From: an uncultured bacterium
GTDB lineage: Bacteria; Patescibacteriota; Minisyncoccia; Phycocordibacterales; Phycocordibacteraceae
Assembly (NCBI GenBank): GCA_937879955.1
Contig: CALFMK010000001.1
Coordinates: forward strand, 91,504-155,503
DNA length: 64,000 nucleotides
Direction of reading: 5' to 3'
Shown: positions 28,464 through 63,950 of the stretch, one piece after another
Numbering within the stretch: the stretch's first letter is position 1
Layout: every line of letters starts with the position of its first letter
Position numbers and translations under genes: made by a program
The notes under the pieces: generated by a model
Told to the model about the DNA's origin: nothing
Seen by the model: the letters and a program-made list of their open reading frames with translations, nothing else
Databases searched by the model: none

Positions 28464-28500
28464 CCTCGGCTCTGCGGAAGCCGAGGTTTTCTCGTCTTTT
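28464..28500 (+). terminator. Intrinsic terminator or attenuator in the leader of the GNAT gene
   Basis: CCTCGGCT-ctgcggaa-GCCGAGG followed by TTTTCTCGTCTTTT. It ends 30 nt before the GNAT ATG, and there is no upstream plus-strand gene for it to terminate. Confidence 0.5.
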
Positions 28501-28530
28501 AGCAGAGCATGTTCTTTGAAAGGAACGGCA

Positions 28531-29184
28531 ATGACCGACCATTTCATCATCTATGAAGGAATCCGCATCTCCTTGGCGCTGATCCAGAAAACATACGGGT
28601 CCGAATACATCCTGTGGCCGAATCGACGCATCGATATAAGCGGCACGCTCCAACGCGGCCCCTATTGGCCCGAGGACTTCGACGAATGGGTCGATAGGCT
28701 CCGGAAAGATAAGGGCAAGAACGAGGCATTCGCGGTCCTCGTGCACGGAGGAGAGTTATCAACGCGCACGTATCGGTATATCGGGCATATGGGTATCCAC
28801 AGCATCTCGTGGCCGAGCGGATACGCCACGACCGGCTCCGTTCTCGGAGGCGACGATGCCCGTGGCAAAGGATACGGGACCGAGGCGAAGCTCTGGACGC
28901 AGTACCACGCGTTCATGGTCCTCGGCCTCCGGAAGCTTTCTTCCGAGGTGAAGGCGTTTAACGCCGGAAGCCTCGGACATCTGCTTAAGTGCGGATACCG
29001 CATCATCGGCCGCCGGAAGGCTCACGACTTCCATGAAGGAAGCTTCGTGGACACTATTATCCTCGAATGCTTCCGCGAGGACTGGGAATCCATCTGGAAC
29101 GAGTACCGTTCCTCGGAGAAGCTCCCGAAGCTTTCAGAAGCGCAGCGGAGGCTCGTGCGAAGAGAGACTAATCAAAAAGACTGA
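28531..29184 (+). CDS. GNAT-family N-acetyltransferase, Acetyltransf_3 or RimJ/RimL-like
   Basis: The ATG at 28531 is preceded by AAAGGAA. The acetyl-CoA-binding motif region reads GGDDARGKGYGTEA. The GC content of about 56% is intermediate. Confidence 0.75.
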   Translation: MTDHFIIYEGIRISLALIQKTYGSEYILWPNRRIDISGTLQRGPYWPEDFDEWVDRLRKDKGKNEAFAVLVHGGELSTRTYRYIGHMGIHSISWPSGYATTGSVLGGDDARGKGYGTEAKLWTQYHAFMVLGLRKLSSEVKAFNAGSLGHLLKCGYRIIGRRKAHDFHEGSFVDTIILECFREDWESIWNEYRSSEKLPKLSEAQRRLVRRETNQKD

Positions 29185-29226
29185 TAACACCAACCTAAAG
29201 CCGCTCCGGAAGGAGCGGCTTGTTCC

Positions 29227-31011
29227 TCACCGCAATGCCGTATCCAGAAACTCGACGATCTTAGGATAGGCATCGAGGCGATTTTTGAGCTTCGCTATCC
29301 CATGTCCTTCGTCGGAATATACAAGCAGTTGAACCTGCCTGCCGAGCATGCGTAGTTTCTCAACCACCTGCTCTGCCTCTGAAAGTGGTACGCGCGGGTC
29401 GTTCGTTCCGTGGATGACCAGTAGCGGTGCGCGCACCTTCTCGATAGCGTGTATCGGGGAGATCCTTTCCAAGAGCTCCTTGTCATGCTCAAGCGAGCCG
29501 TATTCCGCTTCACGAACTGCTCGGCGATACGGAGCGGTGTTCTCGAGGAACGTGACGAAGTTCGCGATTCCTAGCGTGTCGATTCCGGCGGCCCAGTACT
29601 CGGGATGGAACGCCAGGCAGGCAAGCACCATGAATCCTCCGTAACTAGCCCCAGAGAGAGCTATTCGACCGGCGTCTATGTCGGGTCTGTCTGCAAGATA
29701 GTCGCGCAACGCTACGATATCCTTTACTGAATCCAGTCGCTTTTCTACATCATCGAGCGCTTGATATGTCTTTCCATATCCCGTGCTACCTCGTACGTTC
29801 GGTGCGACCACAGCATACCCGTGATGTACCAAGTACTGCGTGAACGGCTGATATACCGACAGGTACTGCGATTCTGGACCGCCGTGTATATCAATCACAA
29901 CCGGCAGCCTTGCTCCTGGTTCGACTCCATCCGGAAGGTACATGAACGCAGGTATGGAAAGACCGTCAAACGAGTCATAACGGATGAGTTCAGGCTCTAC
30001 CATCGCTTCCGGTGGGACACCCTGGGTACTATAGGTGAGCTGTCGCGATACTCCCGTCTCGAGATCGAGCACCCATACGTCCATGGTGCGCCGTGAGTCT
30101 CCTAGAACGAATGTCACGAGAGAACCGCTCTCTGAGAAGCGCACTCGATAGATATTCCCGGCCGGAAATCGATATGTCCGAGTCTCGAACGTATGTGCAT
30201 CATGGAGGGAGACGTGCTTGTATCCTTCCTCGTTCACGATAACGGCAATGTTCGTGCCGTTGCGGTCTATGGTGAAGTCCTCTATGTCCCAGTCCGGCGT
30301 ATATACGTACTCGATGCTTCTTTTTGCAAGTGAATATCGTGCAAGGCCATTGAATTCGCGTCCCGCGTCTTGAATCAAGAAGAATGCTGATTCATCCGGA
30401 AGCCAGGATGCGCCCATGTAAAATACACTCCCTTCATGTGGAGTAAGGTGTTCGATACTACCCGTACCGAGATGTATGAGCACCAGATCAGTGTTCGCAC
30501 TCGAATCCTTTCTTCGTGCTGTCACATACGTTCCTTTCGGTGAGAATCCCTCCGCTGCGTTCCAGCCTCCGGTATCAAGGATGCATCGTCTCTCCTTTGT
30601 GTGCACGTCGAGTGTATATACATCAAAATCCTTTCCGTTCCTCTCGTTCGAGGAGAAACAAATATAATTTCCGTCCGAAGACCAGGCACCAAAGTCGTGA
30701 CGTGCGGCGGGCTGTGCGGTGAGATCTGTAACTATCCGTGTGTCTAAATTAAGTAGATAGAGCTGTGTCTGCTCGTTCCCGTCCTCTGCCTTACCAAATA
30801 TGAGAGTCTCTTCAACGGGAGAGAATCGTACGAAAGAGATAGAATCGTCGAAGTTTGTAAGCTGCTCTGGCTCGCCGCCCTCAACCGCGACGAGAAAAAC
30901 CTGGGACGTGCCAGTGCTGTTGCTCAAATAGGCGACATGAGATCCGTCAGGACTGAAACTTGGGTCTCCGCTCGCCCTGGTTTCGAGGAAATCTTTAATA
31001 CTGTATGCCAT
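29227..31011 (-). CDS. S9-family serine peptidase with an N-terminal beta-propeller, a prolyl oligopeptidase or acylaminoacyl-peptidase-like enzyme
   Basis: 594 aa. The N-terminus has TolB-like WD/propeller repeats. The C-terminal alpha/beta hydrolase carries GASYGG (the nucleophile Ser), plus Asp and His. The gene is about 52% GC against about 65% in the surrounding DNA. Confidence 0.85.
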   Translation of the reverse strand: MAYSIKDFLETRASGDPSFSPDGSHVAYLSNSTGTSQVFLVAVEGGEPEQLTNFDDSISFVRFSPVEETLIFGKAEDGNEQTQLYLLNLDTRIVTDLTAQPAARHDFGAWSSDGNYICFSSNERNGKDFDVYTLDVHTKERRCILDTGGWNAAEGFSPKGTYVTARRKDSSANTDLVLIHLGTGSIEHLTPHEGSVFYMGASWLPDESAFFLIQDAGREFNGLARYSLAKRSIEYVYTPDWDIEDFTIDRNGTNIAVIVNEEGYKHVSLHDAHTFETRTYRFPAGNIYRVRFSESGSLVTFVLGDSRRTMDVWVLDLETGVSRQLTYSTQGVPPEAMVEPELIRYDSFDGLSIPAFMYLPDGVEPGARLPVVIDIHGGPESQYLSVYQPFTQYLVHHGYAVVAPNVRGSTGYGKTYQALDDVEKRLDSVKDIVALRDYLADRPDIDAGRIALSGASYGGFMVLACLAFHPEYWAAGIDTLGIANFVTFLENTAPYRRAVREAEYGSLEHDKELLERISPIHAIEKVRAPLLVIHGTNDPRVPLSEAEQVVEKLRMLGRQVQLLVYSDEGHGIAKLKNRLDAYPKIVEFLDTALR

Positions 31012-31101
31012 AGCTACTTTAGATTATATGTGAACAAGGTCTGAGATTAAGAGGATATGAAATTTAAGAACAGAAGAAGAATAGAACTCTGGAAATGAAT
31101 A

Positions 31102-31131
31102 GGGACCGTCATCCCGAAGGATGACGGTCCC
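31102..31131 (-). terminator. Stem-loop, probably a terminator, immediately downstream of the small peptide ORF
   Basis: A perfect 13-bp stem, GGGACCGTCATCC-CGAA-GGATGACGGTCCC. On the minus strand it is followed by a T-rich tract (ATTCATTTCC...TTCTTCTTCTGTTCTT). Confidence 0.5.
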
Positions 31132-31141
31132 ATGATTGCAG

Positions 31142-31240
31142 CTAGTGGCCGCAACCGACGCCGTCGCCGCCGTTGCCGCAGCCGCCGTCCCCGTCGCAGC
31201 CGCCATTGCCGCCGCGGAAGCTCATCTTACCGTAGGACAT
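31142..31240 (-). CDS. Candidate 32-aa Gly/Cys/Asp-rich peptide reading MSYGKMSFRGGNGGCDGDGGCGNGGDGVGCGH. It is not in the ORF track.
   Basis: A perfect Shine-Dalgarno sequence, AAGGAGG, lies 5 nt upstream of the ATG. A TAG stop is followed 10 nt later by the 13-bp hairpin. It sits in an AT-rich island between the HK and the S9 peptidase. The GC-rich repeat codons in the other frames give the tracked 60-aa artefact ORFs. Confidence 0.4.
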   Translation of the reverse strand: MSYGKMSFRGGNGGCDGDGGCGNGGDGVGCGH

Positions 31241-31617
31241 TTCTGCCTCCTTAGTTTACTGTCATCGCCAATCGACAACAGCAGGTACAACCGCAGAAGG
31301 TCTGCGGCTGTTGATTAGAACCTGTCGGGCTCGCAGGGCAAGTCGTTGACCGGTTCGATGGGTCGATACCCATTCTCTTCAGGATGGTCCATTGGAGAAA
31401 TGGGTCGTTGGTGCTTATCAAAGATCATTTATAGCTCCTTTTGGCACGGTTTGGACTCAAAATGAGTGCCAAATTTGACCTATAAATTAGAATCCTTGCT
31501 AAAGGGGAGAAGAAAGGATTCTTGTCTGCGAGGACAATACACCACCTATATGATGAAAAGATGAGATAAAGATAAAATTTTCCTGGATTTCTTAGACTAG
31601 ACCTAACCTCCCATCTT

Positions 31618-33261
31618 CTAGATTGGAAGCTCGACGGTGAACTTGGAACCCTTGTCAGCGCCTGCGGACTCCGCGCGGACCGTGCCGCCATGGGCCTCGA
31701 TGATGTTCTTCACGATGTAGAGCCCGAAGCCGGTGGACTCGACGTTGATCTTCGTGGAATTCGCGCCGTGCCCGCCCTCGGTGAAGAGATGTTCCATATC
31801 TTCCTTCGTGATGCCGACGCCCGTGTCCTCGACGACGAAACGGACCGTCTTGCCGTCCTGCGCGAGCGAGACCTTCACCTGCCCTTTCGGCGTGTACTTG
31901 ATGGAGTTGTCGATGATGTTCTTGAGCGCGTTCATGAGCTGGCCCTTGTCGCCCGGATACATGACCGGCGCGGCGCCGAGATCAAGGATCAGGGCGAGAC
32001 CCTTCGCGTCCGCCGCTGCCTTGAGGTCAAGGATGATCTCCTCGATGAGCTGCTTCAGGTCGAACGGCTCCTTCCGGTATTCCACCTTGCCGCTCTTGAT
32101 GTTCGCGGCGTTCAGGATCTCCTGAATGGTGGCGATGCCCTTCGTGTCGGACCGGAAGCCTTCCTCGACCATAGGCTTCATGGGCTCGGGAATCGGGCCG
32201 AAATCACCCTCCTTTATGAGCGAGAATATGTTGCGCGATTTCGTCACGAAGCCCTTGATCTGGTGCGTGATGAAGTGGATGAGCGTCACCTGCTGGCGGT
32301 TCGAGACCTGGAGCTGCGCGGCGAGCTGCTCGATCTCCGTGCGCTGCTGCACCTCGTGCTTGAAGGTCCGTATGAGGGTGTAGCCGAGTATGGCGAGGAA
32401 GACGAGCGTCACGACGACGATCCAGCGGACAATGGAGATGTTCTGGATGAAGAGGATGCTGAACACGGCGAGCCAGAGGCCGATGACGAGCACCTGGGCG
32501 GCCATGGTCTGGCTCCTGCCGACGAACTTCGCCTGGATCACGAAGTACGAGAGTGCGCCGATCGTGACCGGAATCACGAACAGGCCGTACTGGCCGATCG
32601 CCCAGTCCTCGGAGAAGCTGCCGATGATGTTCCCGGACGAAAAGCCGAGCAGGAGGACGAGCGAGGTCCCTGCGACGAGGAGAATCGGCGCCTTCTGCAT
32701 GGCGGCCTTCCTCCCGAGCCATGAGCTGAAGGCTATGCCGATGATCCAGAGCACATAGAGGATCTCGATAAGGTAGTTGTAATACGCGAGCGGACCCTCG
32801 ATCACCTCGCGATCACAGTCGGTCAGGTTGAACCCGATGATGTTCCAGTGCGTTGCCGTGAGCGCGATGGTCGGCAGGAGCGGGAGCACGATAAGGAGCT
32901 TCGTCTTCCAGGACACGTCGTTCCCGGTCATGAACACGAGCACGAAGTACACGAATCCGGCGTAGATGATCGGCTCGATCATGTTCACGAGGGACCAGGC
33001 GAACACCACGGTGCGGAGGCTATCGGTCGCCCAGAGGATGAGGTCGAGGAGGAGCCAGGTGCTGAGGGTAAGCGCGATGAAGAGCAGCACCTTGTTCAGG
33101 AGCGACCTCCGGTTCGCGAAGTATATGAAGAACCCGAAGATGAGCGAGACCAGCACCGGCGTGAGATGCGAGTAATAGATGAGCGGCGAGAAGACGTTCT
33201 CCGAGAAGAAGACGAGCGGGCTCGTGCCCCATTCGCATGCGGCTATCATTCCTTCGATCAT
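31618..33261 (-). CDS. Sensor histidine kinase with a multi-TM N-terminal sensor domain (8-9 TM). No cognate response regulator is nearby.
   Basis: 547 aa. The N-terminal 320 aa are polytopic. A HisKA-like H-box (FITHQIKGF) is present. The HATPase_c N, G1 and G2 boxes read NALKNIIDNSIKYT, EDTGVGI and GFGLYIVKNIIEAHGG. Confidence 0.85.
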   Translation of the reverse strand: MIEGMIAACEWGTSPLVFFSENVFSPLIYYSHLTPVLVSLIFGFFIYFANRRSLLNKVLLFIALTLSTWLLLDLILWATDSLRTVVFAWSLVNMIEPIIYAGFVYFVLVFMTGNDVSWKTKLLIVLPLLPTIALTATHWNIIGFNLTDCDREVIEGPLAYYNYLIEILYVLWIIGIAFSSWLGRKAAMQKAPILLVAGTSLVLLLGFSSGNIIGSFSEDWAIGQYGLFVIPVTIGALSYFVIQAKFVGRSQTMAAQVLVIGLWLAVFSILFIQNISIVRWIVVVTLVFLAILGYTLIRTFKHEVQQRTEIEQLAAQLQVSNRQQVTLIHFITHQIKGFVTKSRNIFSLIKEGDFGPIPEPMKPMVEEGFRSDTKGIATIQEILNAANIKSGKVEYRKEPFDLKQLIEEIILDLKAAADAKGLALILDLGAAPVMYPGDKGQLMNALKNIIDNSIKYTPKGQVKVSLAQDGKTVRFVVEDTGVGITKEDMEHLFTEGGHGANSTKINVESTGFGLYIVKNIIEAHGGTVRAESAGADKGSKFTVELPI

Positions 33262-55118: not shown

Positions 55119-57092
55119 ATGGCTAAGAAACACGCTTCCTGGGGCTTCGACGTGACCGAACTCACCCTTTCAATCCGTCCGCAGGACGACTTCTATCATC
55201 ACGCGCACAAGAAATGGATGGACAAGAATCCCATCCCGAAGGAGGAGTCGCGCTGGGGCACGTTCATGATCGTACGGTACGAGACCGAGAAGCAGGTCCG
55301 CGCCATCGTCGAGGAAGTGGCCGAGAGGAAGGGGCTTCCTGCCGGAAGCAGCGAGCAGATGGTCCGCGACCTGTACCGCTCCGGCATGGATATGGAGCGC
55401 CGCAATGCGCTCGGCCTCGCGCCGCTGTCCCCGCTCCTTGAGAAGATCGACGCGATCGAGGACCAGGAGGACCTGCAGCGCGTCATCGCGGAACTCCATC
55501 GCGCGGACGTCGGCGTCATCTGGGGCGCGGGCGTCGACCAGGACATGAAGGATAGCGAATCCTATGCGCTCTACCTCGGCCAGGACGGCCTCGGCATGCC
55601 GGACCGCGACTATTATCTCAAGGACGACGCCGAATCGAAGCGCGTGCGCGAGGCATACCGCGGCCATGTCGAGAAGCTGTTCATGCTCATGGGAGTCCCG
55701 AAGAAGGGATCCGCATCCTCGCGCGATACCGTGCTTCGCATCGAGACCGCGCTCGCGAAGGTATCGATGAGCAAGGAGGTGATGCGCGATCCGGACGCGA
55801 TCTATCACAAGTTCACGCTCGCGAAGCTGAAGAAGCTCGCGCCTGCGATCGACTGGAACCTCTATCTGAAGCGCATCGGCGGACAGAAGGCCGGCTACTA
55901 CCTCGTGATGCAGCCCGCGTTCTTCGAGCGCGCGAGCGCGATGCTCGAGGAGGTCTCGATCGCGGACTGGAAGACCTACCTCTCCTTCCACCTCGTGAAC
56001 GACTATGCCGGGGCGCTCTCGGAGCCGTTCGTGAAGCAGAGCTTCTCCTTCTACGGGACCGTGCTCACGGGCGTGAAGGCCATGAAGCCGCTCTGGCGCC
56101 GCGTCCTCTCGACCGTGAACGGCAGCCTCGGCGAGGTGCTCGGGAAGCTCTACGTCGAGCGGCACTTCCCGCCCGAGGCGAAGAAGAAGATGAACCTCCT
56201 CGTCGACGACCTCTTCACGGCGTACGAGGCCCGTATCCGATCGCTCGACTGGATGAGCCCCGCGACCAAGCGGAAGGCGCTCCTGAAGCTCGCCTCCTTC
56301 AACCGGAAGATCGGCTACCCGGACCGCTGGCGCTCGTACAAGGGCCTCGAGATACGGGCCGACGACTACGTCGGCAACATCCTGCGCGCGAGCGAGTACG
56401 AGCATAAGCGCCACTTGCGCCGTCTCGGGAAGCCGATGGACCGCAAGGAGTGGCTCATGTACCCGCAGACCGTGAACGCGTACTACCAGCCCACGATGAA
56501 CGACATCGCGTTCCCGGCCGCCATACTCCAGCCGCCGTTCTTCGGCTTCGATTTCGACGATGCGGTCAACTACGGCTCCATCGGCGCCGTGATCGGGCAC
56601 GAGATAACGCACGGCTTCGACGACGAGGGCTCCAAGTTCGATGCCAAGGGCAACCTCAAGAGCTGGTGGACCGCGGAGGACCGTAAGCGCTTCATGGCGA
56701 AGGCCAGGAAGGTCGAGAAGCAGTTCGACTCGTACACGGTCGCGGATGGCGTGAAGGTGAACGGCAAGCTCACGCTCGGCGAGAACATCGCGGACCTCGG
56801 CGGCCTCTCCATCGCCTTCGACGCGTACAAGCTCCAGCTCGCGCGCGCGGGACGCCACGACATCGACGGCCTCACGCCCGAGCAGCGGTTCTTCTTCGGG
56901 TTCGCCATGTTCGAGCGCGAGAACGCCCGCCCCGAGTTCACGAAGACCCAGGTCCTCACGGACCCGCATGCGCCGGGCGTGTTCCGCATCAACGGCCCGG
57001 TCTCGAACTTCGAGCCGTTCTACGACTCGTTCGGCGTGAAGAAGGGCGACGGGCATTTCCGTGCCCCGAAGGACCGCGAGATGGTCTGGTAG
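55119..57092 (+). CDS. pepO: M13-family zinc metallo-endopeptidase, PepO or neprilysin-like
   Basis: 657 aa. The HEITHGFDDEG (HExxH) motif, ENIADLGG, and the C-terminal ...GDGHFRAPKDRE.VW are present. Confidence 0.9.
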   Translation: MAKKHASWGFDVTELTLSIRPQDDFYHHAHKKWMDKNPIPKEESRWGTFMIVRYETEKQVRAIVEEVAERKGLPAGSSEQMVRDLYRSGMDMERRNALGLAPLSPLLEKIDAIEDQEDLQRVIAELHRADVGVIWGAGVDQDMKDSESYALYLGQDGLGMPDRDYYLKDDAESKRVREAYRGHVEKLFMLMGVPKKGSASSRDTVLRIETALAKVSMSKEVMRDPDAIYHKFTLAKLKKLAPAIDWNLYLKRIGGQKAGYYLVMQPAFFERASAMLEEVSIADWKTYLSFHLVNDYAGALSEPFVKQSFSFYGTVLTGVKAMKPLWRRVLSTVNGSLGEVLGKLYVERHFPPEAKKKMNLLVDDLFTAYEARIRSLDWMSPATKRKALLKLASFNRKIGYPDRWRSYKGLEIRADDYVGNILRASEYEHKRHLRRLGKPMDRKEWLMYPQTVNAYYQPTMNDIAFPAAILQPPFFGFDFDDAVNYGSIGAVIGHEITHGFDDEGSKFDAKGNLKSWWTAEDRKRFMAKARKVEKQFDSYTVADGVKVNGKLTLGENIADLGGLSIAFDAYKLQLARAGRHDIDGLTPEQRFFFGFAMFERENARPEFTKTQVLTDPHAPGVFRINGPVSNFEPFYDSFGVKKGDGHFRAPKDREMVW

Positions 57093-57304: not shown

Positions 57305-57970
57305 CTACCAGTCGATCGGCCTCTCCCCGTTCTCCTCGAGATACGCGTTCGCCCTGCTAAACGGCCTGCTCCCGAAGAACCCGTTCGCGGCCGAGAACGG
57401 CGACGGATGCGCGGACTCGATGACGAGATGCTTCGTGCGGTCGATATGCGCGCCCTTGGTGCGGGCATAGTTGCCCCACAGTATGAATACGAGATGCTCG
57501 CGCTCCTCGGAAAGGACCCTTATGACGGCATCCGTGAACACTTCCCAGCCCTTGCCTTGATGCGAGCCTGCGGACGAGGCACGGACCGTGAGCGTCGCGT
57601 TCAGGAGCAGGACGCCCTGCTTCGCCCATCGCGACAGGTCGCCGCTCGCGTTCGATACCGGCTTCCCGAGGTCGCTCTCGAGCTCCTTGTAGATATTGCG
57701 AAGGGAAGGCGGCAGCGTAACGCCGTCCTCGACCGCGAACGAGAGGCCGATCGCCTGACCCGCGCCATGATACGGATCCTGTCCGAGGATAACCACCTTC
57801 ACGTCGTCGAAGGGCGTGAGGTCGAACGCGCGGAAGATGTTCTTCGGCTGCGGGTATACCTTTCCTTTCGCGTACTCCTCCTTCACGAAGTCCGTGAGCT
57901 GCTCGAAGTACGGCTTCCCGAACTCCTCGGAGAGCCTCGCCTTCCATGACGGTTCCATCTTCACTTCCAT
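57305..57970 (-). CDS. ung: Uracil-DNA glycosylase, family 1
   Basis: Motifs GQDPYH, the Leu-loop region HPSPFS, and ...LLLNATLTVR... are present. The ATG at 57970 gives MEVKMEPSW..., whereas the tracked ORF starts at a GTG 6 nt upstream. Confidence 0.9.
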   Translation of the reverse strand: MEVKMEPSWKARLSEEFGKPYFEQLTDFVKEEYAKGKVYPQPKNIFRAFDLTPFDDVKVVILGQDPYHGAGQAIGLSFAVEDGVTLPPSLRNIYKELESDLGKPVSNASGDLSRWAKQGVLLLNATLTVRASSAGSHQGKGWEVFTDAVIRVLSEEREHLVFILWGNYARTKGAHIDRTKHLVIESAHPSPFSAANGFFGSRPFSRANAYLEENGERPIDW

Positions 57971-57993
57971 GAGCACAGCATACCAAAGACGAA

Positions 57994-58014
57994 CGCGGCG
58001 TCAGGGACGCCGCG
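57994..58014 (-). terminator. Stem-loop downstream of the Cas4-like nuclease gene and a small TM ORF
   Basis: CGCGGCGTC-AGG-GACGCCGCG. On the minus strand it is followed by TTCGTCTTTGG. Confidence 0.4.
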
Positions 58015-58161
58015 TATCTTAGATGTATCTGAGGGCAGCGAGGCCTGCTCCGCTCGCCAGGCACGCAACGGCGACAGCAAGCGCGAGGCCGTTCTCGCGA
58101 AACCATGTCGACATTCCTATGATCCTTTCCTTCTGATCCAGAAGGAATCTAGCACATGCCG

Positions 58162-58944
58162 CTACTTCTTCGAAGCCTTATGGAGCGCGAGCAGCTTCTT
58201 GCCTGCCGCCTCGCGGTACGGGCAGTACTCGCAGAGGTCGCCCGATGGCGGGATGCTGTCAGACTCCAGGGTCTCCTTGATGCGCGGAAGCACCTCGTCT
58301 ATCCACTCGGTCTGCCCTTCGCACTCGACGACCGTCACCTCGAACTCGAGCTTCCCATCGAAGGCTTCCTTGTCGTCATGCGCGTTCGCGTAGACCAGAT
58401 AGCCCATCGGCGAGACCTCGAAGCCGTTGTTGCGGAGCAACCACTGATACACGCCCATCTGGCGCTTGTACTGCTCGTTCCAGCTGGAATCGCCGAGCAC
58501 CTCGATGGTGCCGGGCTTCGACGTGGACTTGTAGTCGACGACGATGAGCTCGCCGGACGGCGCTACCCAGATGTCGTCCACGGCGCCCGAGATCGTGAGC
58601 CCGGTCTCCTTGTGCGTGAACTCGACGCCCTCGAAGTTCTCGCGCCATGTATCGATGCTCTTGTGCTGGAACGGCACGGCATCGATGCCGTACTGGGTCA
58701 TGAGCGGGTGCGCGGTCGCAGCCTTCCGATGCGCGTCGAACTCCTTCTTGAAGAGCGTATCGACGGCCTTGTTGAGGGTGAACTCAGGGTATCCGGGGCG
58801 CTTGGTGCCGAGCTTGTTGTCTATGTAGAAGCAGCGCGGGCACTCTACGAAGAACTCGATCTTCGAGCGCGAGAGGCGCCACTTCTTGCCTCCGTAGTTC
58901 CAGTCCGGGCTGCGGTTCGGGTTGTAGCGCTTGAAATCGGCCAT
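58162..58944 (-). CDS. PD-(D/E)XK-superfamily nuclease with N- and C-terminal CxxC pairs, Cas4 or RecB-nuclease-like
   Basis: The internal start is MADFKRYNPN. The motifs read ...VDDIWVAPSGELIVVDYKS... (D, then E/D-x-K), CPRC near the N-terminus and CEYC near the C-terminus, which would be ligands for an Fe-S cluster. There is no CRISPR array or cas gene nearby. Confidence 0.65.
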   Translation of the reverse strand: MADFKRYNPNRSPDWNYGGKKWRLSRSKIEFFVECPRCFYIDNKLGTKRPGYPEFTLNKAVDTLFKKEFDAHRKAATAHPLMTQYGIDAVPFQHKSIDTWRENFEGVEFTHKETGLTISGAVDDIWVAPSGELIVVDYKSTSKPGTIEVLGDSSWNEQYKRQMGVYQWLLRNNGFEVSPMGYLVYANAHDDKEAFDGKLEFEVTVVECEGQTEWIDEVLPRIKETLESDSIPPSGDLCEYCPYREAAGKKLLALHKASKK

Positions 58945-59060
58945 ATGCGAGGAGTATAGCATTCGCCCGTGCACCGCTGCGCGAGGTCATTGACGCGAAT
59001 TCGGCAGTATCGTTCAATGCATGCAGATGCTGGCATGCTGCCACGATAGGGAGAACGACT

Positions 59061-59516
59061 ATGTCCAGTCTCAAGCGCACGTCTATGACCGTGAACGTAC
59101 TGCTTCTGTCGTCCTTCCTTGTGGGTGGCGCCTTCCTGCTCTTCGTCTGGTTGCTCGCTGGCGGCTCCACGTTCGGCCTTTTGCCCGAAATCGCGGAGCG
59201 CGGCGTCACGACCGACCTCGGATGCTTCATCGCGTTCATGGCGCTGGTCACCCTCGAAGGGCTACTGATCCGGACCCAGGCCGAGGGCAGAAAGCTGAAG
59301 TATCTGCTCTCGTATCTGGCCATGGCGGCGATTCTCGCTCTCTCTGGCTTCTTCGAGGGGTTCGGCACGGCTTCCGATGCAGACAAGGCTGCCCGGATCG
59401 TTAGCTGGCTGTTCTTCATCGTCGCAGGCGCACCGGGCGTGAAGCTCGTCGCCTGGTCGATCGTCCAATTGTTCCTGCAGGCCCGTTTCGCGTTCCTCGC
59501 GGAGCAGCCGACCTGA
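59061..59516 (+). CDS. Membrane protein with 4 TM segments, hypothetical
   Basis: 151 aa with four hydrophobic helices. It lies between the two nuclease genes. Confidence 0.55.
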   Translation: MSSLKRTSMTVNVLLLSSFLVGGAFLLFVWLLAGGSTFGLLPEIAERGVTTDLGCFIAFMALVTLEGLLIRTQAEGRKLKYLLSYLAMAAILALSGFFEGFGTASDADKAARIVSWLFFIVAGAPGVKLVAWSIVQLFLQARFAFLAEQPT

Positions 59517-59569
59517 CGGGACGATCAAAGCCGCGCTCTAAGGAGCGCGGCTTTTCCTATATATGCACG

Positions 59570-60403
59570 CTAGTTCTTCTGGCAGAGCGTATTCACTTCC
59601 GCAACCACCGTACCGATGCGCTCAGGACTGAGTCCCACCGCGCGCAGCACGTCCCGGTGCTCGCGGACCTGGTCGCAGGTGACGATACCCTTGTCGATGA
59701 GGAGGCGCTTCTCCGACTTCTTGAGCGTGGTGAGCGCCGTCACCGGGAAGAGCGCGTTCGCCACGATGCGGTCGTAGAGGTTCCCTTCGTGCGGATAGCT
59801 CCAGCCGAGGAGACCCATGCCGGAGCAGGTCGCGTAGTCGATGGCCTGCTTCGTGAACTTGGTGTTCGTGATGAGGAAGCCGAGGTCGACAGGACATGTC
59901 TTCTTCTCGTCCTCCCTGCACTGCCAGATGTCGTCGAAGCGCGCCTTCACGTAGAGCGCTACCTTTACATCGGTCTTGTAGCCCGGGCTGTTGTGGTACT
60001 TGAGCTCGGCGGCGAGGTGCTCGTTACCTCTCGAGGCGTACACGTCCACCTCGTGCGGCACGCACTTGCCCGGGATCATGCGGCGGCCTTCGACGGTCCA
60101 GCCCTCCTTCTTGAAGAGCTCGGCGACGAAGTCCTCGAACGGGTGCCCCGAGGGGCCCAGGTCGAAGAGCGCGCGACGGAGACTGTAGCGGGCAGCGGCC
60201 GGACGCGCGTCCTGGCGGAGCATCTGGAACGCGCGGCGATAGATGTCGGAGCTCTCCGCGCGAGGACCCATGGAGGCTTCGATGGTATGCCGGATGCGTT
60301 CCGCGGTCTGGTCGGTGGCGCCTGCCTTCCTGAGCGAGCTCTCGAGCTTCAGTCCGTCGAACACCTCTACCGTCCCGTCCGCCTTGATGATCTCAGGTTT
60401 CAT
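59570..60403 (-). CDS. ATP-cone domain protein fused to a restriction-endonuclease (Mrr_cat-like) domain
   Basis: 277 aa. The N-terminus reads MKPEIIKADGTVEVFDGLKLESSLRKAG, which is an ATP-cone. The C-terminal half has a PD-(D/E)XK-like core (...EVDVYASRGNEHLAAELKYH...). Confidence 0.6.
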   Translation of the reverse strand: MKPEIIKADGTVEVFDGLKLESSLRKAGATDQTAERIRHTIEASMGPRAESSDIYRRAFQMLRQDARPAAARYSLRRALFDLGPSGHPFEDFVAELFKKEGWTVEGRRMIPGKCVPHEVDVYASRGNEHLAAELKYHNSPGYKTDVKVALYVKARFDDIWQCREDEKKTCPVDLGFLITNTKFTKQAIDYATCSGMGLLGWSYPHEGNLYDRIVANALFPVTALTTLKKSEKRLLIDKGIVTCDQVREHRDVLRAVGLSPERIGTVVAEVNTLCQKN

Positions 60404-60428: not shown

Positions 60429-61451
60429 TCACGCGATGATCCCGCCGCCGATGACGACGCTATCCTTATAGAGCACGAGCGACTGCCCTGGCGCGAGCGG
60501 CTCCGGCAAAGGCTCTGATGGCATGAATGCACCATTCCAGGTACCGCGTATGAGCGGGCCGTGATAGCGGAACTGCGCATCGATAGTTCCCGCTGGCACA
60601 TCACTGAACCAATTCGCCTGAATAAGACTGATGCCCTCAGATACGCTCTCTGCAGTGCGCTCCTTCGACACCACGAGCAGGTTCTTCTTGATATCCTTCC
60701 GTACCACGTACCAAGGACCCGCAGGAGCGTCCGTAAGCGCGATACGCGCCCCGAGCGTATGCAGGATCGCGCCGTCATGTCGACCGATCACCTTCCCATC
60801 CATGTCTACGGCGTCGCCCGGTTCAGGATTGAACTCCATCTTCAGGAACTCGTCCACGGAGATGCTTCCGAGGAAGCAGATGCCCTGACTGTCCTTCTTC
60901 GCGGCATTCGGAAGCCCGTACTTCTTCGCGAGCCGGCGCGTCTCGTCCTTCTTCATGGCGCCGAGCGGGAACAGCGTCATAGCCATCGCTTCCTTCGGGA
61001 CGGCCCAAAGGAAGTAGCTCTGATCCTTGCCTGCATCTACGCCGCGGGACAGGATTCCGTCTTTTGCCTGCGCGTAGTGCCCGGTGGCGATGTAGTCGGC
61101 GCCATGCTCCTTCGCGAAGCGATAGAACGCGCCGAACTTAACTTCCCGGTTGCACATCACGTCAGGGTTCGGCGTGCGGCCGGCCTCGTACTCGGCGAGC
61201 AGGTAGTCAATCACGCCTTGCTTGTATTCAGTACTCGCATCGAGCGTATGGAAGGGAATCTGGAGCCTCGCCGCTACCCGCATGGCGTCCTTGCGGTCGT
61301 CAGACCAGGTGCAGGGCATCCCGGGCGGGTACCAGCCCTTGATGAAGATGCCTGTGACGAGCGCGCCCTGCTCCTTCAAGAGCGCGGCTGTGACGGCAGA
61401 GTCCACGCCGCCGGAGAGACCTACGAATACGCGCTTCCCCTTCAGGTTCAT
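60429..61451 (-). CDS. mnmA: tRNA-specific 2-thiouridylase MnmA
   Basis: The internal start is MNLKGKRVFVGLSGGVDSAV, which is the PP-loop. The catalytic Cys residues are present. The tracked ORF has a 19-aa extension. Confidence 0.9.
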   Translation of the reverse strand: MNLKGKRVFVGLSGGVDSAVTAALLKEQGALVTGIFIKGWYPPGMPCTWSDDRKDAMRVAARLQIPFHTLDASTEYKQGVIDYLLAEYEAGRTPNPDVMCNREVKFGAFYRFAKEHGADYIATGHYAQAKDGILSRGVDAGKDQSYFLWAVPKEAMAMTLFPLGAMKKDETRRLAKKYGLPNAAKKDSQGICFLGSISVDEFLKMEFNPEPGDAVDMDGKVIGRHDGAILHTLGARIALTDAPAGPWYVVRKDIKKNLLVVSKERTAESVSEGISLIQANWFSDVPAGTIDAQFRYHGPLIRGTWNGAFMPSEPLPEPLAPGQSLVLYKDSVVIGGGIIA

Positions 61452-61547
61452 GCGTACAGGTATAGCACGCCATGGGCAGTCTGAGACTATGCTGGAACCC
61501 TTCTGCAACCTATGCTAGGTTCTGCCTAGATCAGGCAGGAGGCCTCC

Positions 61548-61875: not shown

Positions 61876-63264
61876 CTACGTCGGCAGGTTCACCGGCGCC
61901 TCGCTCGTCGTGGACTGGATGCGCGGCAGGGACGGCGTCGTGACGGAGCTCGACGGGATATGGAAGATGGTCGCGAGCTCCTCGACGCTCATGACGCTGT
62001 AGTCGCCGATGTACGGCGGATGGAAGAACGCGCGACGCCTGTAGAACTCGGTCACCATGTGGTTCGCATGCGCGGTATGGTGTCCGTGCTTGTCCTCCCA
62101 TGGGTAGTCATTGAAATGGTTCGACCAGCGGCCGTCGGTCGGCATGAGCGAGTTGTGCTGCTCGGAGTTGAACGGCTTGAAGATGTTCACGAGCACGCCG
62201 CCCATGGTCCCCTGCGCCGCGCTCTCAGGCGCGAGATAGATGCCGCGGATGCCGATGTCGTACGCCTGCTTGCCGGTGTTGCGCTCGATCGCCTCGATCC
62301 GGCTCGCCATGGCGCGCGTCGGGTTCGGGTAGCTCGTCGTGGTGCGCTTGTTCCCGTCCGCGTCCACGTACTCGTTCACCACGGCGTCCTCCTCGCGCAG
62401 CTCGGCGATCGCCGCCTTCGCCGCCTCTTTCCAGTTCCCCGGCTTCGAGTCGAAGGGCTTGCCCTGGTGCACGCGCACGATGAGCTGCAGCCAGAGCTGC
62501 TCCTGAGAATTCAGGGAGCCCATGATCTCGAGCACCTGCGCGAGCGGATCCACCTGCTCCTCCGGCTTCTGCACCTTGTCGAGGCCGTATTCCTCGTACG
62601 TCTTCACCGGATACGGGTCCGGCTTCGTCTTCTTGAACTCGAAGGCGGTCATCGTATACGGGTGATGGGACGGGTCCGTGAGGCGGCTGTAGTCCATCGC
62701 CTCGATCACCTCCACGCCCGGGTACTGGGCGTAGATGTAGCTCTCGAACGCGCGGCGCCATCCCTCGCGCATCCATGCATACAGGTGCACCTGCCCGCCG
62801 AGCGAGACGATCTCGTACGAGTACCACGGGCGGGCACGGCCCTGGATCCAGCGCTTGTACCACGTGTTCTCGCCTCCCGCGATATGCATGCTCGAGAGGA
62901 CGGTCTCCATGGCGAGCGGCGTACGGCGCGTGTCGCGCGGAAGCCGGATCTCGAGGAGCACGTGCTTCTGGCCGCTCAGCCACGCCACCTTGTTCGCGTC
63001 CACGAAGCGCATGAACCCGAAGTGGAAGAGCAGGACCGGGAGCCAGACCGGGGACGTGAAGAGTAGGAACTCGAAGTTTATGAGCGACTGCGCGGGCGCC
63101 ACGAGGAAGAACGCGACGATCTCGGCCACGAACGCGAAGACCACCGGCCTGAACTCGATGGCGGTGCCGCCGCCCTCATGGGCGCCATGCATCCAGTGCT
63201 GGATAGCGGCGAGGCCCGGGAGCCCGCCTCCGCCGTGTCCTCCGCCGTGTCCGCCTGCTGACAT
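61876..63264 (-). CDS. Membrane protein with a His/Gly-rich N-terminus, hypothetical
   Basis: The internal start is MSAGGHGGGHGGGGLPGLAAIQHWMHGAHEGGG. Three TM helices and a soluble domain of about 330 aa follow. There is no P-loop. A TATACT -10 element 6 nt upstream of the ATG and the lack of a Shine-Dalgarno sequence suggest a leaderless transcript. The tracked 637-aa ORF has an artefactual Arg-rich extension. Confidence 0.55.
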   Translation of the reverse strand: MSAGGHGGGHGGGGLPGLAAIQHWMHGAHEGGGTAIEFRPVVFAFVAEIVAFFLVAPAQSLINFEFLLFTSPVWLPVLLFHFGFMRFVDANKVAWLSGQKHVLLEIRLPRDTRRTPLAMETVLSSMHIAGGENTWYKRWIQGRARPWYSYEIVSLGGQVHLYAWMREGWRRAFESYIYAQYPGVEVIEAMDYSRLTDPSHHPYTMTAFEFKKTKPDPYPVKTYEEYGLDKVQKPEEQVDPLAQVLEIMGSLNSQEQLWLQLIVRVHQGKPFDSKPGNWKEAAKAAIAELREEDAVVNEYVDADGNKRTTTSYPNPTRAMASRIEAIERNTGKQAYDIGIRGIYLAPESAAQGTMGGVLVNIFKPFNSEQHNSLMPTDGRWSNHFNDYPWEDKHGHHTAHANHMVTEFYRRRAFFHPPYIGDYSVMSVEELATIFHIPSSSVTTPSLPRIQSTTSEAPVNLPT

Positions 63265-63275
63265 ACGCGAAGTAT

Positions 63276-63332: not shown

Positions 63333-63950
63333 TTAGGCGACCTGGTAGGTGCCGTCCTTCTGGCGCTTGAAGTAGCGGGTGTCGCCGAGGTTCACGAGGA
63401 TGGTGTTGTCCTTCACGTAGCGAACCTTCTTCACCTCCTCGATGATCTGGTCGCGCGTGAGAGGACCCTTCTTCTCGAGCACCTCGCGCACGACGTCGCG
63501 CACGACGCCCGGCTGGAAGCCCCACTCGGCGAGCGCGTAGAGGCCGCGGCCGACCAGTACGAAGCGGGAATCCTTGATGAGCTCGTTGTGCGTGGTGGCG
63601 ACATGCGCCTTCTTGTTGAAGACCTCGACGATGGACGTCGCGACGTCGGCGAAGTGCATCGGCTCGCCCTTCTGCTTGATCACGAGGTACGCGTAGTCGC
63701 GGATGCCCTTCGTGCGGATCGCCGGCGCGTGCGCCTTGCCCCACTCGGAAAGCGGGTTCTTCGCGATGGTCTTCGAGATCGTGAGCCAACGCTTGAGGAT
63801 CTCCTCGTTGCGGTATGCAGCGTTCACCTCCTTGAGCTCCTCGAGGAAGCGGTTGATGATATCGCCCTCGGCCATGACCTCAGCATCGTCGAGCGTCTCG
63901 TAGAGGCGCGAGAGGGCGCCATGGACGGCGTCAGCGGTCTTCTGGTCCAC
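63333..63950 (-). CDS. HARE-HTH (winged-helix) domain protein, hypothetical. The 5' end may extend past the window edge.
   Basis: 205 aa. The segment PMHFADVATSIVEVF...DSRFVLVGRGLYALAEWG matches the HARE-HTH pattern. The reading frame stays open to position 64000. Confidence 0.5.
   Translation of the reverse strand: MDQKTADAVHGALSRLYETLDDAEVMAEGDIINRFLEELKEVNAAYRNEEILKRWLTISKTIAKNPLSEWGKAHAPAIRTKGIRDYAYLVIKQKGEPMHFADVATSIVEVFNKKAHVATTHNELIKDSRFVLVGRGLYALAEWGFQPGVVRDVVREVLEKKGPLTRDQIIEEVKKVRYVKDNTILVNLGDTRYFKRQKDGTYQVA

What the first reader, a model, noticed from the sequence alone, without database searches (positions are those of the whole stretch)
57305..60403. A cluster of two nucleases forms a candidate defense or DNA-surveillance module: ung, a Cas4-like Fe-S nuclease, a membrane protein and an ATP-cone-Mrr nuclease
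Within 3 kb lie uracil-DNA glycosylase and a 260-aa PD-(D/E)XK nuclease with CxxC pairs at both termini, which is the Cas4 or RecB-nuclease-domain arrangement for an Fe-S cluster. A possible 31-aa single-TM peptide ORF (58019..58114, minus strand, MSTWFRENGLALAVAVACLASGAGLAALRYI) follows, then a hairpin. A divergent 4-TM membrane protein comes next. Last is a protein that fuses an N-terminal ATP-cone, a nucleotide-sensing domain best known from NrdR, to an Mrr-like restriction-endonuclease catalytic domain. A nucleotide-sensing domain fused to a nuclease, placed next to a stand-alone Cas4-like nuclease with no CRISPR array or cas genes, is suggestive. It could be an uncharacterised defense island such as nucleotide-signal-gated restriction, or a DNA-repair module. 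This is inference only.
Basis: inference. Interest (0 to 1): 0.6.

Follow-up and report, generated by a model that had tools for sequence, protein, structure and literature searches.

The report
Conserved nuclease and DNA-repair gene block
The genes are real, but they lie in a core, vertically inherited block of a small-genome Patescibacteria (Paceibacteria) chromosome shared by dozens of related species, so this looks like housekeeping DNA maintenance rather than a phage-defence island; the ATP-cone nuclease fusion belongs to a widespread family I found no study of.

Summary
All the described features exist: family-1 ung, a 260-aa RecB/Cas4-family nuclease with invariant CX2C...CX2C, a terminator-like hairpin, a coding-like 4-TM ORF, and an ATP-cone + AF1548/Mrr-type PD-(D/E)XK nuclease.

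The defence-island reading is not supported. In 80 related Paceibacteria species, mnmA (79), the Cas4-like gene (74), ung (73) and alaS (63) flank the ATP-cone nuclease in the same order. Both nucleases are about as conserved as alaS (median 73-76% identity). Neither is found in phage collections, apart from one weak 27%-identity Cas4-like match. PADLOC hits only generic Cas4 profiles. In 30 of 82 relatives an MGMT/Ogt gene sits between the Cas4-like gene and ung, which gives the block a DNA-repair theme.

The membrane ORF has no detectable homologue in 82 relatives. The 31-aa ORF has a counterpart only in the nearest relative. Neither belongs to a conserved trio.

Outside this clade the two nucleases are unlinked. 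36 of 40 distant Cas4-like loci lack the ATP-cone gene and share no recurrent neighbour. In Bacteroidota, Chlamydiota and unassigned metagenome contigs the ATP-cone nuclease instead precedes a beta-CASP nuclease, a thymidine-phosphorylase-like gene and a PRPP-synthetase-like gene.

Still unexplained: what the ATP-cone nuclease does, and two deeply divergent Cas4-like types that occupy the same slot.

The parts
57305..57976 (-). ung, family-1 uracil-DNA glycosylase. The true start is probably the ATG at 57970 or 57958.
   Evidence: NCBIfam ung equivalogs at 324 bits against a cut-off of 162. Pfam UDG. Present after the nuclease genes in 73 of 80 relatives.
57993..58015 (-). Terminator-like hairpin between the Cas4-like gene (plus the 31-aa ORF) and ung.
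   Evidence: 10-bp stem with 8 GC pairs, followed by TCGTCTTTGG. MFE -23.7 kcal/mol, z = -4.5, with 0 of 200 shuffles as stable.
58019..58114 (-). 31-aa hydrophobic ORF. It is doubtful as a gene. It occupies the slot that holds an MGMT/Ogt gene in 30 of 82 relatives.
   Evidence: GGAAAGGA lies upstream. One hydrophobic segment. GC by codon position is not clearly coding. Only the nearest relative, L170, has a 31-aa counterpart, at 40% identity. No counterpart in the 80 GTDB loci.
58162..58944 (-). Stand-alone Cas4/RecB-family PD-(D/E)XK nuclease of 260 aa, 'type A'. It has a CX2C...CX2C metal site and the motifs D123/D124, D137-x-K139 and Q162...Y166.
   Evidence: PDDEXK_1 64.9 bits and Cas_Cas4 29.1 bits. 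TIGR00372 scores 39.4, below its cut-off of 65. Cysteines and catalytic residues are invariant. The model matches AdnAB/AddB nuclease domains, RecE, Cas4 Pcal_0546, Exo5 and ACE1.
59061..59516 (+). Orphan ORF for a 151-aa, roughly 4-TM protein. It is a lineage-specific insertion that splits the otherwise adjacent ATP-cone nuclease and Cas4-like genes.
   Evidence: GC3 0.82. Shine-Dalgarno-like GGGAGAA. Four hydrophobic segments. No Pfam, PADLOC or NCBIfam hit. No homologue in 82 relatives, plasmids or phages. Not on record as a called gene.
59527..59554 (.). Bidirectional terminator hairpin between the convergent membrane ORF and the ATP-cone nuclease gene.
   Evidence: 12-bp GC-rich stem flanked by A-run and T-run. 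MFE -26.2 (+ strand) and -25.2 (- strand) kcal/mol, z = -3.6 and -3.0.
59570..60403 (-). ATP-cone + AF1548/Mrr-type PD-(D/E)XK nuclease + AF1548-like C-terminal domain, 277 aa. ATP-cone is about residues 1-85 (60149-60403). The nuclease core is about residues 86-200, with D120, E133 and K135. The C-terminal domain is residues 219-272 (59588-59749).
   Evidence: Pfam. PDB 1Y88 at E = 5e-25. D/E/K align with the predicted AF1548 catalytic residues D38/E51/K53. Model pLDDT 90.8; matches 1Y88, MspJI nuclease domain and NrdR ATP-cone. At least 2370 close and 7271 distant homologues.
60429..61508 (-). mnmA (tRNA 2-thiouridylase), the upstream gene of the conserved block.
   Evidence: Pfam tRNA_Me_trans 230 bits. 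Immediately upstream of the ATP-cone nuclease in 79 of 80 relatives.

Best explanation
The segment is part of a vertically inherited, core-chromosome gene block of a Paceibacteria (Patescibacteria/CPR) bacterium. The order is mnmA -> ATP-cone/AF1548-type nuclease -> stand-alone Cas4-family nuclease -> (MGMT/Ogt in many relatives) -> ung -> peptidase(s) -> alaS. It is not a mobile or variable defence island.

Shown: the synteny, the degree of conservation and the domain content.

Inferred functions:
- ung removes uracil (base-excision repair).
- Where present, Ogt reverses O6-alkylguanine damage.
- The Cas4-like enzyme is a metal-cluster-stabilised RecB-family DNA exonuclease or end-processing enzyme that serves repair or recombination in a reduced genome.
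- The ATP-cone nuclease is a PD-(D/E)XK endonuclease. By analogy with NrdR and ribonucleotide reductase, ATP/dATP binding to its N-terminal cone probably switches its oligomeric state and hence its activity. Its C-terminal helical domain probably holds nucleic acid.

In this particular genome the block has been interrupted by an orphan membrane-protein gene with its own terminator, and by a short spacer (31-aa ORF plus hairpin) in the Ogt slot. The nucleases and ung are therefore probably transcribed separately here.
For: - Synteny: of 80 species-level relatives, mnmA is adjacent in 79, the Cas4-like gene in 74, ung in 73 and alaS in 63. The gap between the ATP-cone gene and the Cas4-like gene is 111 bp or less in 61 of 74.
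- Distribution: at least 543 GTDB species hold a close ATP-cone nuclease homologue.
- Conservation across 46 complete loci, median identity: ATP-cone nuclease 73%, Cas4-like 76%, alaS 76%, ung 74%, mnmA 65%.
- Window context is core chromosome: rpsM, rpsD, rpoA, dnaK, dnaJ and alaS.
- An MGMT gene (PF01035, 105 bits, PCHRV motif) sits between the Cas4-like gene and ung in 30 of 82 loci.
- No phage or IMG/VR homologues, apart from one weak 27%-identity Cas4-like match.
- PADLOC gives only generic Cas4 profiles.
- No CRISPR array in the window.
- Literature: solo-Cas4 is common in CPR including Parcubacteria, is inherited vertically and evolves like ordinary cellular genes (PMC5704561).
- Catalytic and cysteine residues are invariant.
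Against: - No function has been demonstrated for either nuclease family. I found no paper on an ATP-cone nuclease.
- The adjacency of the ATP-cone gene and the Cas4-like gene is tighter than mere synteny needs. It persists down to 41-49% ATP-cone identity (L119, L142, L150, L154).
- The Cas4-like slot carries two deeply divergent types that do not follow the flanking genes. That pattern is also seen for genes under diversifying selection.
- Small-genome bacteria could fix a defence gene in the core genome. Hudaiberdiev et al. left 'defence or repair' open.
- Nucleotide binding by this cone is untested. The canonical Arg of the K-R motif is replaced by Ala (K-A-x-G), and a profile of the N-terminal domain does not reach NrdR significantly by sequence (E = 1.4).
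Confidence: 0.72

Rival explanations
1. Two-nuclease degradation or salvage pair. The ATP-cone endonuclease senses the adenine-nucleotide pool and makes the first cuts in DNA or RNA. A co-transcribed 5'->3' exonuclease finishes the job: the Cas4-like enzyme in Paceibacteria and a beta-CASP enzyme elsewhere. The products feed nucleotide salvage, which CPR bacteria depend on.
For: - In 7 of 9 distinct non-CPR loci the ATP-cone nuclease gene is followed directly by a beta-CASP/RMMBL nuclease. In 5 of 9 a thymidine-phosphorylase-family gene and a PRPP-synthetase-like gene also follow.
- In Paceibacteria the downstream position is taken by the Cas4-like gene, 111 bp or less away in 61 of 74 loci.
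- That slot is kept even when the Cas4-like type is swapped. L056 and L047 are 81-85% identical in the flanking genes but 54% identical in the Cas4-like gene.
Against: - 36 of 40 distant Cas4-like loci have no ATP-cone nuclease and no recurrent neighbour.
- Three Paceibacteria loci keep the ATP-cone gene without an adjacent Cas4-like gene (L035, L044, L048).
- No salvage genes lie within 10 kb in Paceibacteria.
- In this window the two genes are separated by an opposite-strand gene and a terminator.
- The substrate, DNA or RNA, is unknown.
Confidence: 0.18
2. A chromosomally fixed anti-phage system. The ATP-cone nuclease acts as a nucleotide-signal-gated restriction enzyme, triggered by dNTP/ATP changes during infection. 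The Cas4-like nuclease helps degrade invader DNA, as the Argonaute-associated Cas4 enzyme ACE1 does.
For: - The nuclease core resembles Mrr_cat, MspJI, Can2 and Cdn1 effector nuclease domains.
- The Cas4-like fold also matches ACE1.
- Rare relatives of the Cas4-like protein are fused to TIR, HD or NUDIX domains.
- The Cas4-like slot shows two swapped divergent types.
- Some DPANN solo-Cas4 genes lie next to restriction-modification genes (PMC5704561).
Against: - The placement is core and syntenic, and conservation matches alaS.
- No PADLOC model hits the ATP-cone protein.
- It is absent from 50,697 phage records and 2.9 million viral contigs.
- There is no methyltransferase, no Mrr_N reader domain, no cas genes and no CRISPR array.
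- Neighbours are repair and translation genes, including Ogt.
- In other phyla the partners are metabolic.
Confidence: 0.07

Closest known systems
AF1548 of Archaeoglobus fulgidus (PDB 1Y88; Pfam AF1548-like_C plus a restriction-endonuclease-like core)
   Same: Residues 92-271 align at E = 5e-25 with 1Y88. The fold match has TM 0.77 on the target. D120/E133/K135 align with the predicted catalytic D38/E51/K53.
   Different: The solved AF1548 chain is 199 aa, and the match starts at its residue 23, so it has no ATP-cone. AF1548 has only a structural-genomics structure and a predicted function.
NrdR / ribonucleotide reductase ATP-cone (PF03477)
   Same: The N-terminal ~85 residues form the beta-hairpin plus helical-bundle fold. 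NrdR chains match with probability 1.0 and rmsd 1.8-2.7 A over 82 residues. 32 of 35 family members hit PF03477. K7, G10 and K19 are invariant across CPR and non-CPR members; D9 is Asp only in the Paceibacteria proteins.
   Different: The cone is fused to a nuclease, not to a Zn-ribbon DNA binder or a reductase. The window protein scores below Pfam's gathering cut-off (22.8 against 25.8). The Arg of the K-R motif is replaced by Ala. Sequence-profile similarity to NrdR is not significant. Nucleotide binding is untested.
Mrr / Type IV restriction endonuclease catalytic domain (PF04471)
   Same: The PD-(D/E)XK core passes the Mrr_cat gathering score (23.0 against 21). MspJI and AspBHI nuclease domains are structural neighbours.
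   Different: There is no Mrr_N or other modified-DNA reader domain. The gene is core and vertically inherited, not patchy. The sequence relation to Mrr is weak.
Solo-Cas4 / PDDEXK_1 RecB-family nucleases (Cas4 SSO0001 and Pcal_0546, AddB/AdnB nuclease domains, Exo5)
   Same: It has the RecB motifs (D, D-x-K, Q-x3-Y) plus four invariant cysteines that bracket the nuclease core. The structural neighbours are AdnAB, AddB, RecE, Cas4, Exo5 and ACE1. Solo-Cas4 genes were already noted as common in CPR/Parcubacteria.
   Different: The cysteines are arranged CX2C...CX2C (2+2) rather than C...CX2CX5C (1+3). It scores below the NCBIfam cas4 cut-off. There are no cas genes or CRISPR array. Whether the metal is Fe-S or Zn is unknown.
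E. coli-type Ung (family-1 UDG) and MGMT/Ogt
   Same: ung is an ordinary equivalog. In relatives an 80-87-aa MGMT domain protein with the PCHRV motif lies next to it.
   Different: The window itself lacks the MGMT gene.

Membership tests
Family-1 uracil-DNA glycosylase (Ung) | Score above the curated equivalog cut-off; GQDPYH and HPSP(L/F)S motifs | tested here: met
   NF003592 scores 324.5 bits against a cut-off of 162, and TIGR00628 scores 278 against 185.75. Both motifs are visible in the translation.
CRISPR-associated Cas4 (TIGR00372 / COG1468) | Score above the NCBIfam equivalog cut-off | tested here: not met
   39.4 bits against a cut-off of 65. Pfam Cas_Cas4 scores 29.1 against GA 22.7, but PDDEXK_1 is the better match at 64.9.
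CRISPR-associated Cas4 (TIGR00372 / COG1468) | One N-terminal and three C-terminal cysteines (C...CX2CX5C) that bind an Fe-S cluster | tested here: not met
   The family has CX2C...CX2C with no third C-terminal Cys. The canonical layout is taken from PMC3466216. The metal content cannot be tested here.
CRISPR-associated Cas4 (TIGR00372 / COG1468) | Encoded next to cas1/cas2 or a CRISPR array | tested here: not met
   The neighbours are ung, an orphan membrane ORF, the ATP-cone nuclease and mnmA. No array in the window.
RecB-family PD-(D/E)XK nuclease (PF12705, 'solo-Cas4-like') | Motifs D, (D/E)xK and QxxxY conserved; Pfam gathering score | tested here: met
   64.9 bits against GA 22. D123/D124, D137-x-K139 and Q162/Y166 are invariant. 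Fold neighbours are AdnAB, AddB, RecE, Cas4 and Exo5.
ATP-cone (PF03477) | Pfam gathering score; ATP-cone fold | tested here: inconclusive
   The window protein scores 22.8 bits, below GA 25.8. However, 32 of 35 homologues hit at E <= 1e-3, best 8.9e-9, and the model matches NrdR cones with probability 1.0. A sequence profile against PDB NrdR gives E = 1.4.
ATP-cone (PF03477) | Binds ATP/dATP and changes oligomeric state | not testable with these tools
   K7, G10 and K19 are conserved across the whole family, and D9 within Paceibacteria, but the K-R arginine is replaced by Ala. Biochemistry is needed.
AF1548-like nuclease | Sequence and fold match to 1Y88 over both the nuclease core and the C-terminal domain; D/E/K triad | tested here: met
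   E = 5e-25 over residues 92-271. Foldseek E = 3.5e-14, TM 0.77. D120/E133/K135 are invariant.
Mrr-type (Type IV) restriction endonuclease | Mrr_cat catalytic domain | tested here: met
   23.0 bits against GA 21. 34 of 35 homologues hit.
Mrr-type (Type IV) restriction endonuclease | N-terminal modified-DNA reader (Mrr_N winged helix) and a patchy, mobile distribution | tested here: not met
   No such domain is found; the N-terminus is an ATP-cone. The gene is core and syntenic in 80 species.
Anti-phage defence island / known defence system (PADLOC) | Match to defence-system models; variable presence; association with mobile elements or other defence genes | tested here: not met
   Only generic Cas4 profiles hit, and nothing hits the ATP-cone protein, the membrane ORF or the 31-aa ORF. 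Synteny is conserved alongside housekeeping genes. No phage or viral homologues apart from one weak Cas4-like match.

The most novel reading that the evidence does not exclude
The ATP-cone/AF1548 nuclease is the sensor-endonuclease of a previously undescribed, widespread module for nucleotide-pool-gated nucleic-acid degradation. It works with a co-transcribed 5'->3' exonuclease, which is the Cas4-like enzyme in Paceibacteria and a beta-CASP enzyme in Bacteroidota and Chlamydiota. It links nucleic-acid turnover to nucleotide salvage or energy stress. The Cas4-like partner gene has been exchanged in place between two ancient types.
Probability: 0.18. Interest if true: 0.65.

Novelty: new member of a known kind. 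Interest (0 to 1): 0.3.

Why it matters
As a defence candidate it does not hold up, which saves a phage-challenge campaign.

Three things remain of value.

1. The ATP-cone + AF1548-type nuclease is a large family with no experimental study that I could find. It has thousands of members across CPR, Bacteroidota, Chlamydiota and unassigned metagenome contigs; the archaeal protein AF1548 shares its nuclease core and C-terminal domain. Its gene neighbourhoods now give testable hypotheses: repair in CPR, and nucleic-acid breakdown or salvage elsewhere.

2. The CPR solo-Cas4-like nucleases use a CX2C...CX2C metal site rather than the textbook 1+3 cysteine layout.

3. A compact repair block (Cas4-like, Ogt, Ung) appears to be part of the conserved core of very reduced genomes. 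That bears on how CPR bacteria maintain DNA with few classical repair pathways.

Tried and rejected
- Defence-system membership: PADLOC gave only generic Cas4 profiles.
- Phage or plasmid origin: no phage hits for either nuclease or the membrane ORF. No IMG/VR hit for the ATP-cone nuclease and one weak (27%) hit for the Cas4-like protein. Only two plasmid hits, and those revealed a metabolic operon instead.
- Conserved trio of Cas4-like, membrane protein and ATP-cone nuclease: rejected. The membrane ORF has no homologue in 82 relatives, even with filters off. The opposite-strand hydrophobic ORF at the same place in the nearest relative is not detectably similar (blastp E = 1).
- The 31-aa ORF as a conserved micro-protein: only one 40%-identity counterpart, in the nearest relative. 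Left as doubtful.
- A recurrent partner for the Cas4-like gene in distant lineages: 132 neighbours from 36 loci were scanned, and no family recurred in more than 3.
- Beta-CASP, thymidine-phosphorylase-like and Prs genes near the Paceibacteria loci or in the window: none.
- Sequence-level proof that the N-terminal domain is an NrdR-like cone: a profile search of PDB was dominated by designed helical repeats, and NrdR came at E = 1.4.
- Direct PDB sequence match for the Cas4-like protein: none.
- Literature on ATP-cone nucleases or AF1548 function: only a 2007 prediction.
- An NJ tree with Biopython timed out. It was replaced by UPGMA on p-distances, which is crude.

Full report
**What is in the sequence**

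The region is transcribed mostly on the minus strand. Reading along that strand, it holds the following:
- mnmA, 60429-61508.
- A 277-aa ATP-cone/nuclease fusion, 59570-60403.
- A plus-strand 151-aa hydrophobic ORF, 59061-59516.
- A PD-(D/E)XK nuclease. The ORF runs to 58974, but homologues are 260-262 aa, so the start is most likely 58944.
- A 31-aa ORF, 58019-58114.
- A hairpin, 57993-58015.
- ung, 57305-57976.
- Then an M13 peptidase on the plus strand, and alaS.

The wider window is ordinary core chromosome: rpsM, rpsD, rpoA, dnaK, dnaJ and one tRNA-Tyr. No CRISPR-like array is present. The best database matches are all named Paceibacterota, Parcubacteria or Patescibacteria.

**Check of each observation**

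- ung is an ordinary family-1 UDG, 324 bits against a cut-off of 162.
- The 260-aa nuclease hits PDDEXK_1 (64.9 bits) and, more weakly, Cas_Cas4 (29.1 bits). It hits PADLOC's generic Cas4 profiles. It is below NCBIfam's cas4 cut-off, 39.4 against 65.
- Its RecB motifs and four cysteines are invariant. D123/D124, D137-x-K139, Q162...Y166, C35, C38, C238 and C241 are kept in every sequence of the 75 Paceibacteria that covers the column, and in about 130 of 150 representatives down to 34% identity.
- A fifth cysteine, C208, is not conserved, and there is no third C-terminal cysteine.
- The layout is therefore CX2C...CX2C. Canonical Cas4, AddB and Exo5 have one N-terminal and three C-terminal cysteines (PMC3466216).
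- The AlphaFold model (pLDDT 77) has AdnAB and AddB nuclease domains, RecE, Cas4 Pcal_0546, Exo5 and the Argonaute-associated ACE1 as nearest solved folds.
- The hairpin after the 31-aa ORF is real and terminator-like.
- The plus-strand ORF looks coding. It has GC3 of 0.82 like its neighbours, an upstream Shine-Dalgarno-like motif, four hydrophobic segments, and a 12-bp-stem bidirectional terminator shared with the convergent nuclease gene.
- The 31-aa ORF is not clearly coding by composition.

**The ATP-cone nuclease**

- In the window protein the Pfam matches are weak: Mrr_cat 23.0 bits against GA 21, ATP-cone 22.8 against 25.8, and AF1548-like_C 18.5 against 23.9.
- Across 35 homologues, 34 hit Mrr_cat, 32 hit ATP-cone and 18 hit AF1548-like_C.
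- Residues 92-271 match the structural-genomics protein AF1548 (PDB 1Y88) at E = 5e-25.
- D120, E133 and K135 align with the residues predicted to be catalytic in AF1548 (PMC1821046; alignment). They are invariant in all homologues aligned.
- A confident model (pLDDT 90.8) matches 1Y88 with TM 0.77, then the MspJI, AspBHI, Can2 and Cdn1 nuclease domains. Its N-terminal ~85 residues match NrdR and RNR ATP-cones with probability 1.0 and rmsd 1.8-2.7 A.
- Caveats: the cone's K-R motif reads K-A. A sequence profile of the N-terminal domain does not reach NrdR significantly. Nucleotide binding is inferred, not shown.
- I found no paper describing an ATP-cone nuclease.

**Is it a defence island?**

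- A scan of one genome per species found close relatives of the ATP-cone nuclease in at least 543 species. The best 80 loci were fetched.
- In those loci mnmA lies immediately upstream in 79. The Cas4-like gene lies downstream in 74, ung in 73, alaS in 63 and the M13 peptidase in 47.
- The ATP-cone gene and the Cas4-like gene are 111 bp or less apart in 61 of 74 loci.
- The whole neighbourhood, housekeeping genes included, is therefore inherited as a block.
- Over 46 complete loci the median identity to the window is 73% for the ATP-cone nuclease and 76% for the Cas4-like protein. The figures for alaS, ung and mnmA are 76%, 74% and 65%. That is the regime of core genes, not of arms-race genes.
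- Neither nuclease has a homologue in 50,697 phage records.
- In 2.9 million viral contigs the only match is one 27%-identity hit to the Cas4-like protein.
- In 33 of 82 relatives an 80-87-aa MGMT/Ogt gene (PF01035, 105 bits, PCHRV motif) lies in the block. In 30 of them it sits exactly between the Cas4-like gene and ung. The block's theme is DNA repair.
- This agrees with the published view that solo-Cas4 genes are common in CPR, inherited vertically and evolving like regular cellular genes (PMC5704561).

**The 'trio'**

- The membrane ORF has no homologue in any of the 82 related loci, in plasmids or in phages. It is not on record as a called gene.
- The nearest relative, L170 (ATP-cone protein 94% identical), has an opposite-strand 139-aa hydrophobic ORF at the same place, but it shows no significant similarity.
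- A few other loci carry unrelated small genes at the same site. The site tolerates insertions, and the membrane gene is not a conserved partner.
- The 31-aa ORF has a 31-aa counterpart at 40% identity only in L170, and none in the GTDB loci. In the window it fills the slot where many relatives have Ogt.
- In this genome the inserted gene and two terminators probably uncouple transcription of the ATP-cone nuclease, the Cas4-like gene and ung. This is an inference.

**Linkage beyond the clade**

- A metagenome scan with distant Cas4-like proteins gave 40 loci of at least 5 kb.
- Only 4 of those carry an ATP-cone nuclease. Those 4 also keep alaS and the DUF8128-like gene of the block, and three of them keep mnmA, so they are more distant members of the same syntenic lineage.
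- The other 36 have neither the ATP-cone nuclease nor ung. Their 132 flanking genes share no recurrent family; the maximum was 3.
- In the other direction, 8 of the 9 distinct loci examined for full-length ATP-cone nucleases at 36-44% identity (Bacteroidota, Chlamydiota and unassigned contigs) were screened for the Cas4-like gene and ung, and none has either; the gene tables of the two loci fetched afterwards list no PDDEXK_1 or UDG gene.
- Instead, 7 of 9 distinct loci have a beta-CASP/RMMBL metallo-beta-lactamase nuclease directly downstream. 5 of 9 have a thymidine-phosphorylase-family gene plus a PRPP-synthetase-like gene. These are often among P-type ATPases, PPK2, acetate kinase and glycolytic genes.
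- No such genes lie near the Paceibacteria loci.

The pairing of the two nucleases is therefore specific to one lineage in which everything around them is conserved too. On its own it is weak evidence for a joint function.

**What remains odd**

- The Cas4-like gene at this fixed slot comes in two types. Type A (42 loci, including the window) and type B (32 loci) are 52% identical to each other. That is as far apart as either is from Cas4-like genes of unrelated CPR contigs.
- The flanking genes barely separate by type.
- Types follow recent phylogeny: the nearest neighbour has the same type in 95% of cases. But they are interleaved at depth.
- L056 (type A) and L047 (type B) are 81-85% identical in the ATP-cone nuclease, ung and alaS, but 54% identical in the Cas4-like gene. 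This suggests replacement in place, or reciprocal sorting of ancient copies. My clustering was crude, so I leave it unresolved.
- In both CPR and non-CPR contexts the ATP-cone nuclease is followed by a second nuclease of a family known for 5'->3' exonuclease activity. That keeps a 'sensor endonuclease plus exonuclease' model alive as the most novel reading.

**Verdict**

- The defence interpretation is not supported.
- The DNA-repair alternative is the best fit.
- The proposed trio is refuted.
- Each gene belongs to a catalogued family. Public annotations already call these proteins 'ATP cone domain-containing protein / restriction endonuclease' and 'PD-(D/E)XK nuclease family protein'.
- The finding ranks as a new member of known kinds. 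Its residual interest lies in the uncharacterised ATP-cone nuclease family and the 2+2-cysteine Cas4-like variant.

Noticed in passing
L016 11614-11874 and 29 other loci; slot equivalent to window 57977-58161: An 80-87-aa MGMT/Ogt gene (PF01035, 105 bits, PCHRV motif) lies between the Cas4-like gene and ung in 30 of 82 Paceibacteria loci. In L044 and L048, which lack the Cas4-like gene, it lies between the ATP-cone nuclease and ung. The window has no MGMT homologue; its slot holds the 31-aa ORF and the hairpin.
   Followed up: yes
L001-L080, Cas4-like gene; window 58162-58944: Two deeply divergent Cas4-like types occupy the same position, 42 of type A and 32 of type B, with 52% identity between types. 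The flanking genes do not split by type. L056 and L047 are 81-85% identical in the flanks but 54% identical in this gene.
   Followed up: partly
L081 1972-6597; L082 7998-12605; L083 7001-11663; L172 6001-10612: In Bacteroidota, Chlamydiota and unassigned metagenome contigs the ATP-cone nuclease heads a conserved operon: a beta-CASP/RMMBL nuclease, a thymidine-phosphorylase-family gene and a PRPP-synthetase-like gene. It is often set among P-type ATPases, PPK2, acetate kinase, phosphofructokinase and 2-hydroxyacid dehydrogenase. I found no literature on it.
   Followed up: partly
between the ATP-cone nuclease and Cas4-like genes in L003, L009, L023, L042, L051, L069, L077-L080, L170: This intergenic site repeatedly holds different small inserted genes. 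Some are opposite-strand hydrophobic ORFs (L009, L023, L051, L170). Others are same-strand ORFs of about 170-250 aa with one N-terminal TM segment and a shared 'VHDQ.AG' motif (L042, L069, L080; the ORFs of L077-L079 have a similar layout). L003 has a 221-aa ORF.
   Followed up: partly
window 55119-57092; L170 8112-10689: The spacer between ung and alaS varies among close relatives. The window and 47 of 80 loci have an M13 peptidase on the opposite strand. L170 and L171 have two M16 peptidase genes instead.
   Followed up: no
window 28001-32000: GC content drops to 0.52-0.55, against about 0.62 elsewhere. A GNAT acetyltransferase ORF (28516-29184) lies in the low-GC stretch and a histidine-kinase-like ORF (31618-33261) at its edge. 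This may be foreign or non-coding-rich DNA.
   Followed up: no
window 61876-63270 and 63333-63950: Upstream of mnmA lies a conserved protein with a Gly/His-rich N-terminus; it has no Pfam hit here, and its counterpart in L170 is listed as DUF8128. Next to it is a highly conserved HARE-HTH protein (70-93% identity across relatives). In L170 and L171 the HARE-HTH protein is about 365 aa with a Sigma70_r4 domain, so here it probably runs off the end of the window.
   Followed up: partly
P0363, P0382, P0414, P0403 (relatives of the Cas4-like protein): Rare fusions of this Cas4-like nuclease to NUDIX, HD_4, TIR plus GYF, and DUF2779 domains occur among the 50%-identity representatives.
   Followed up: no
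window 59570-60403 (protein residues C114, H117, H137, C193): Besides the D/E/K triad, Cys114, His117, His137 and Cys193 are invariant across the CPR, Bacteroidota and Chlamydiota members of the ATP-cone nuclease family aligned here (AF1548 has Gln at the His117 position). They may form a structural metal site or line the active site.
   Followed up: no
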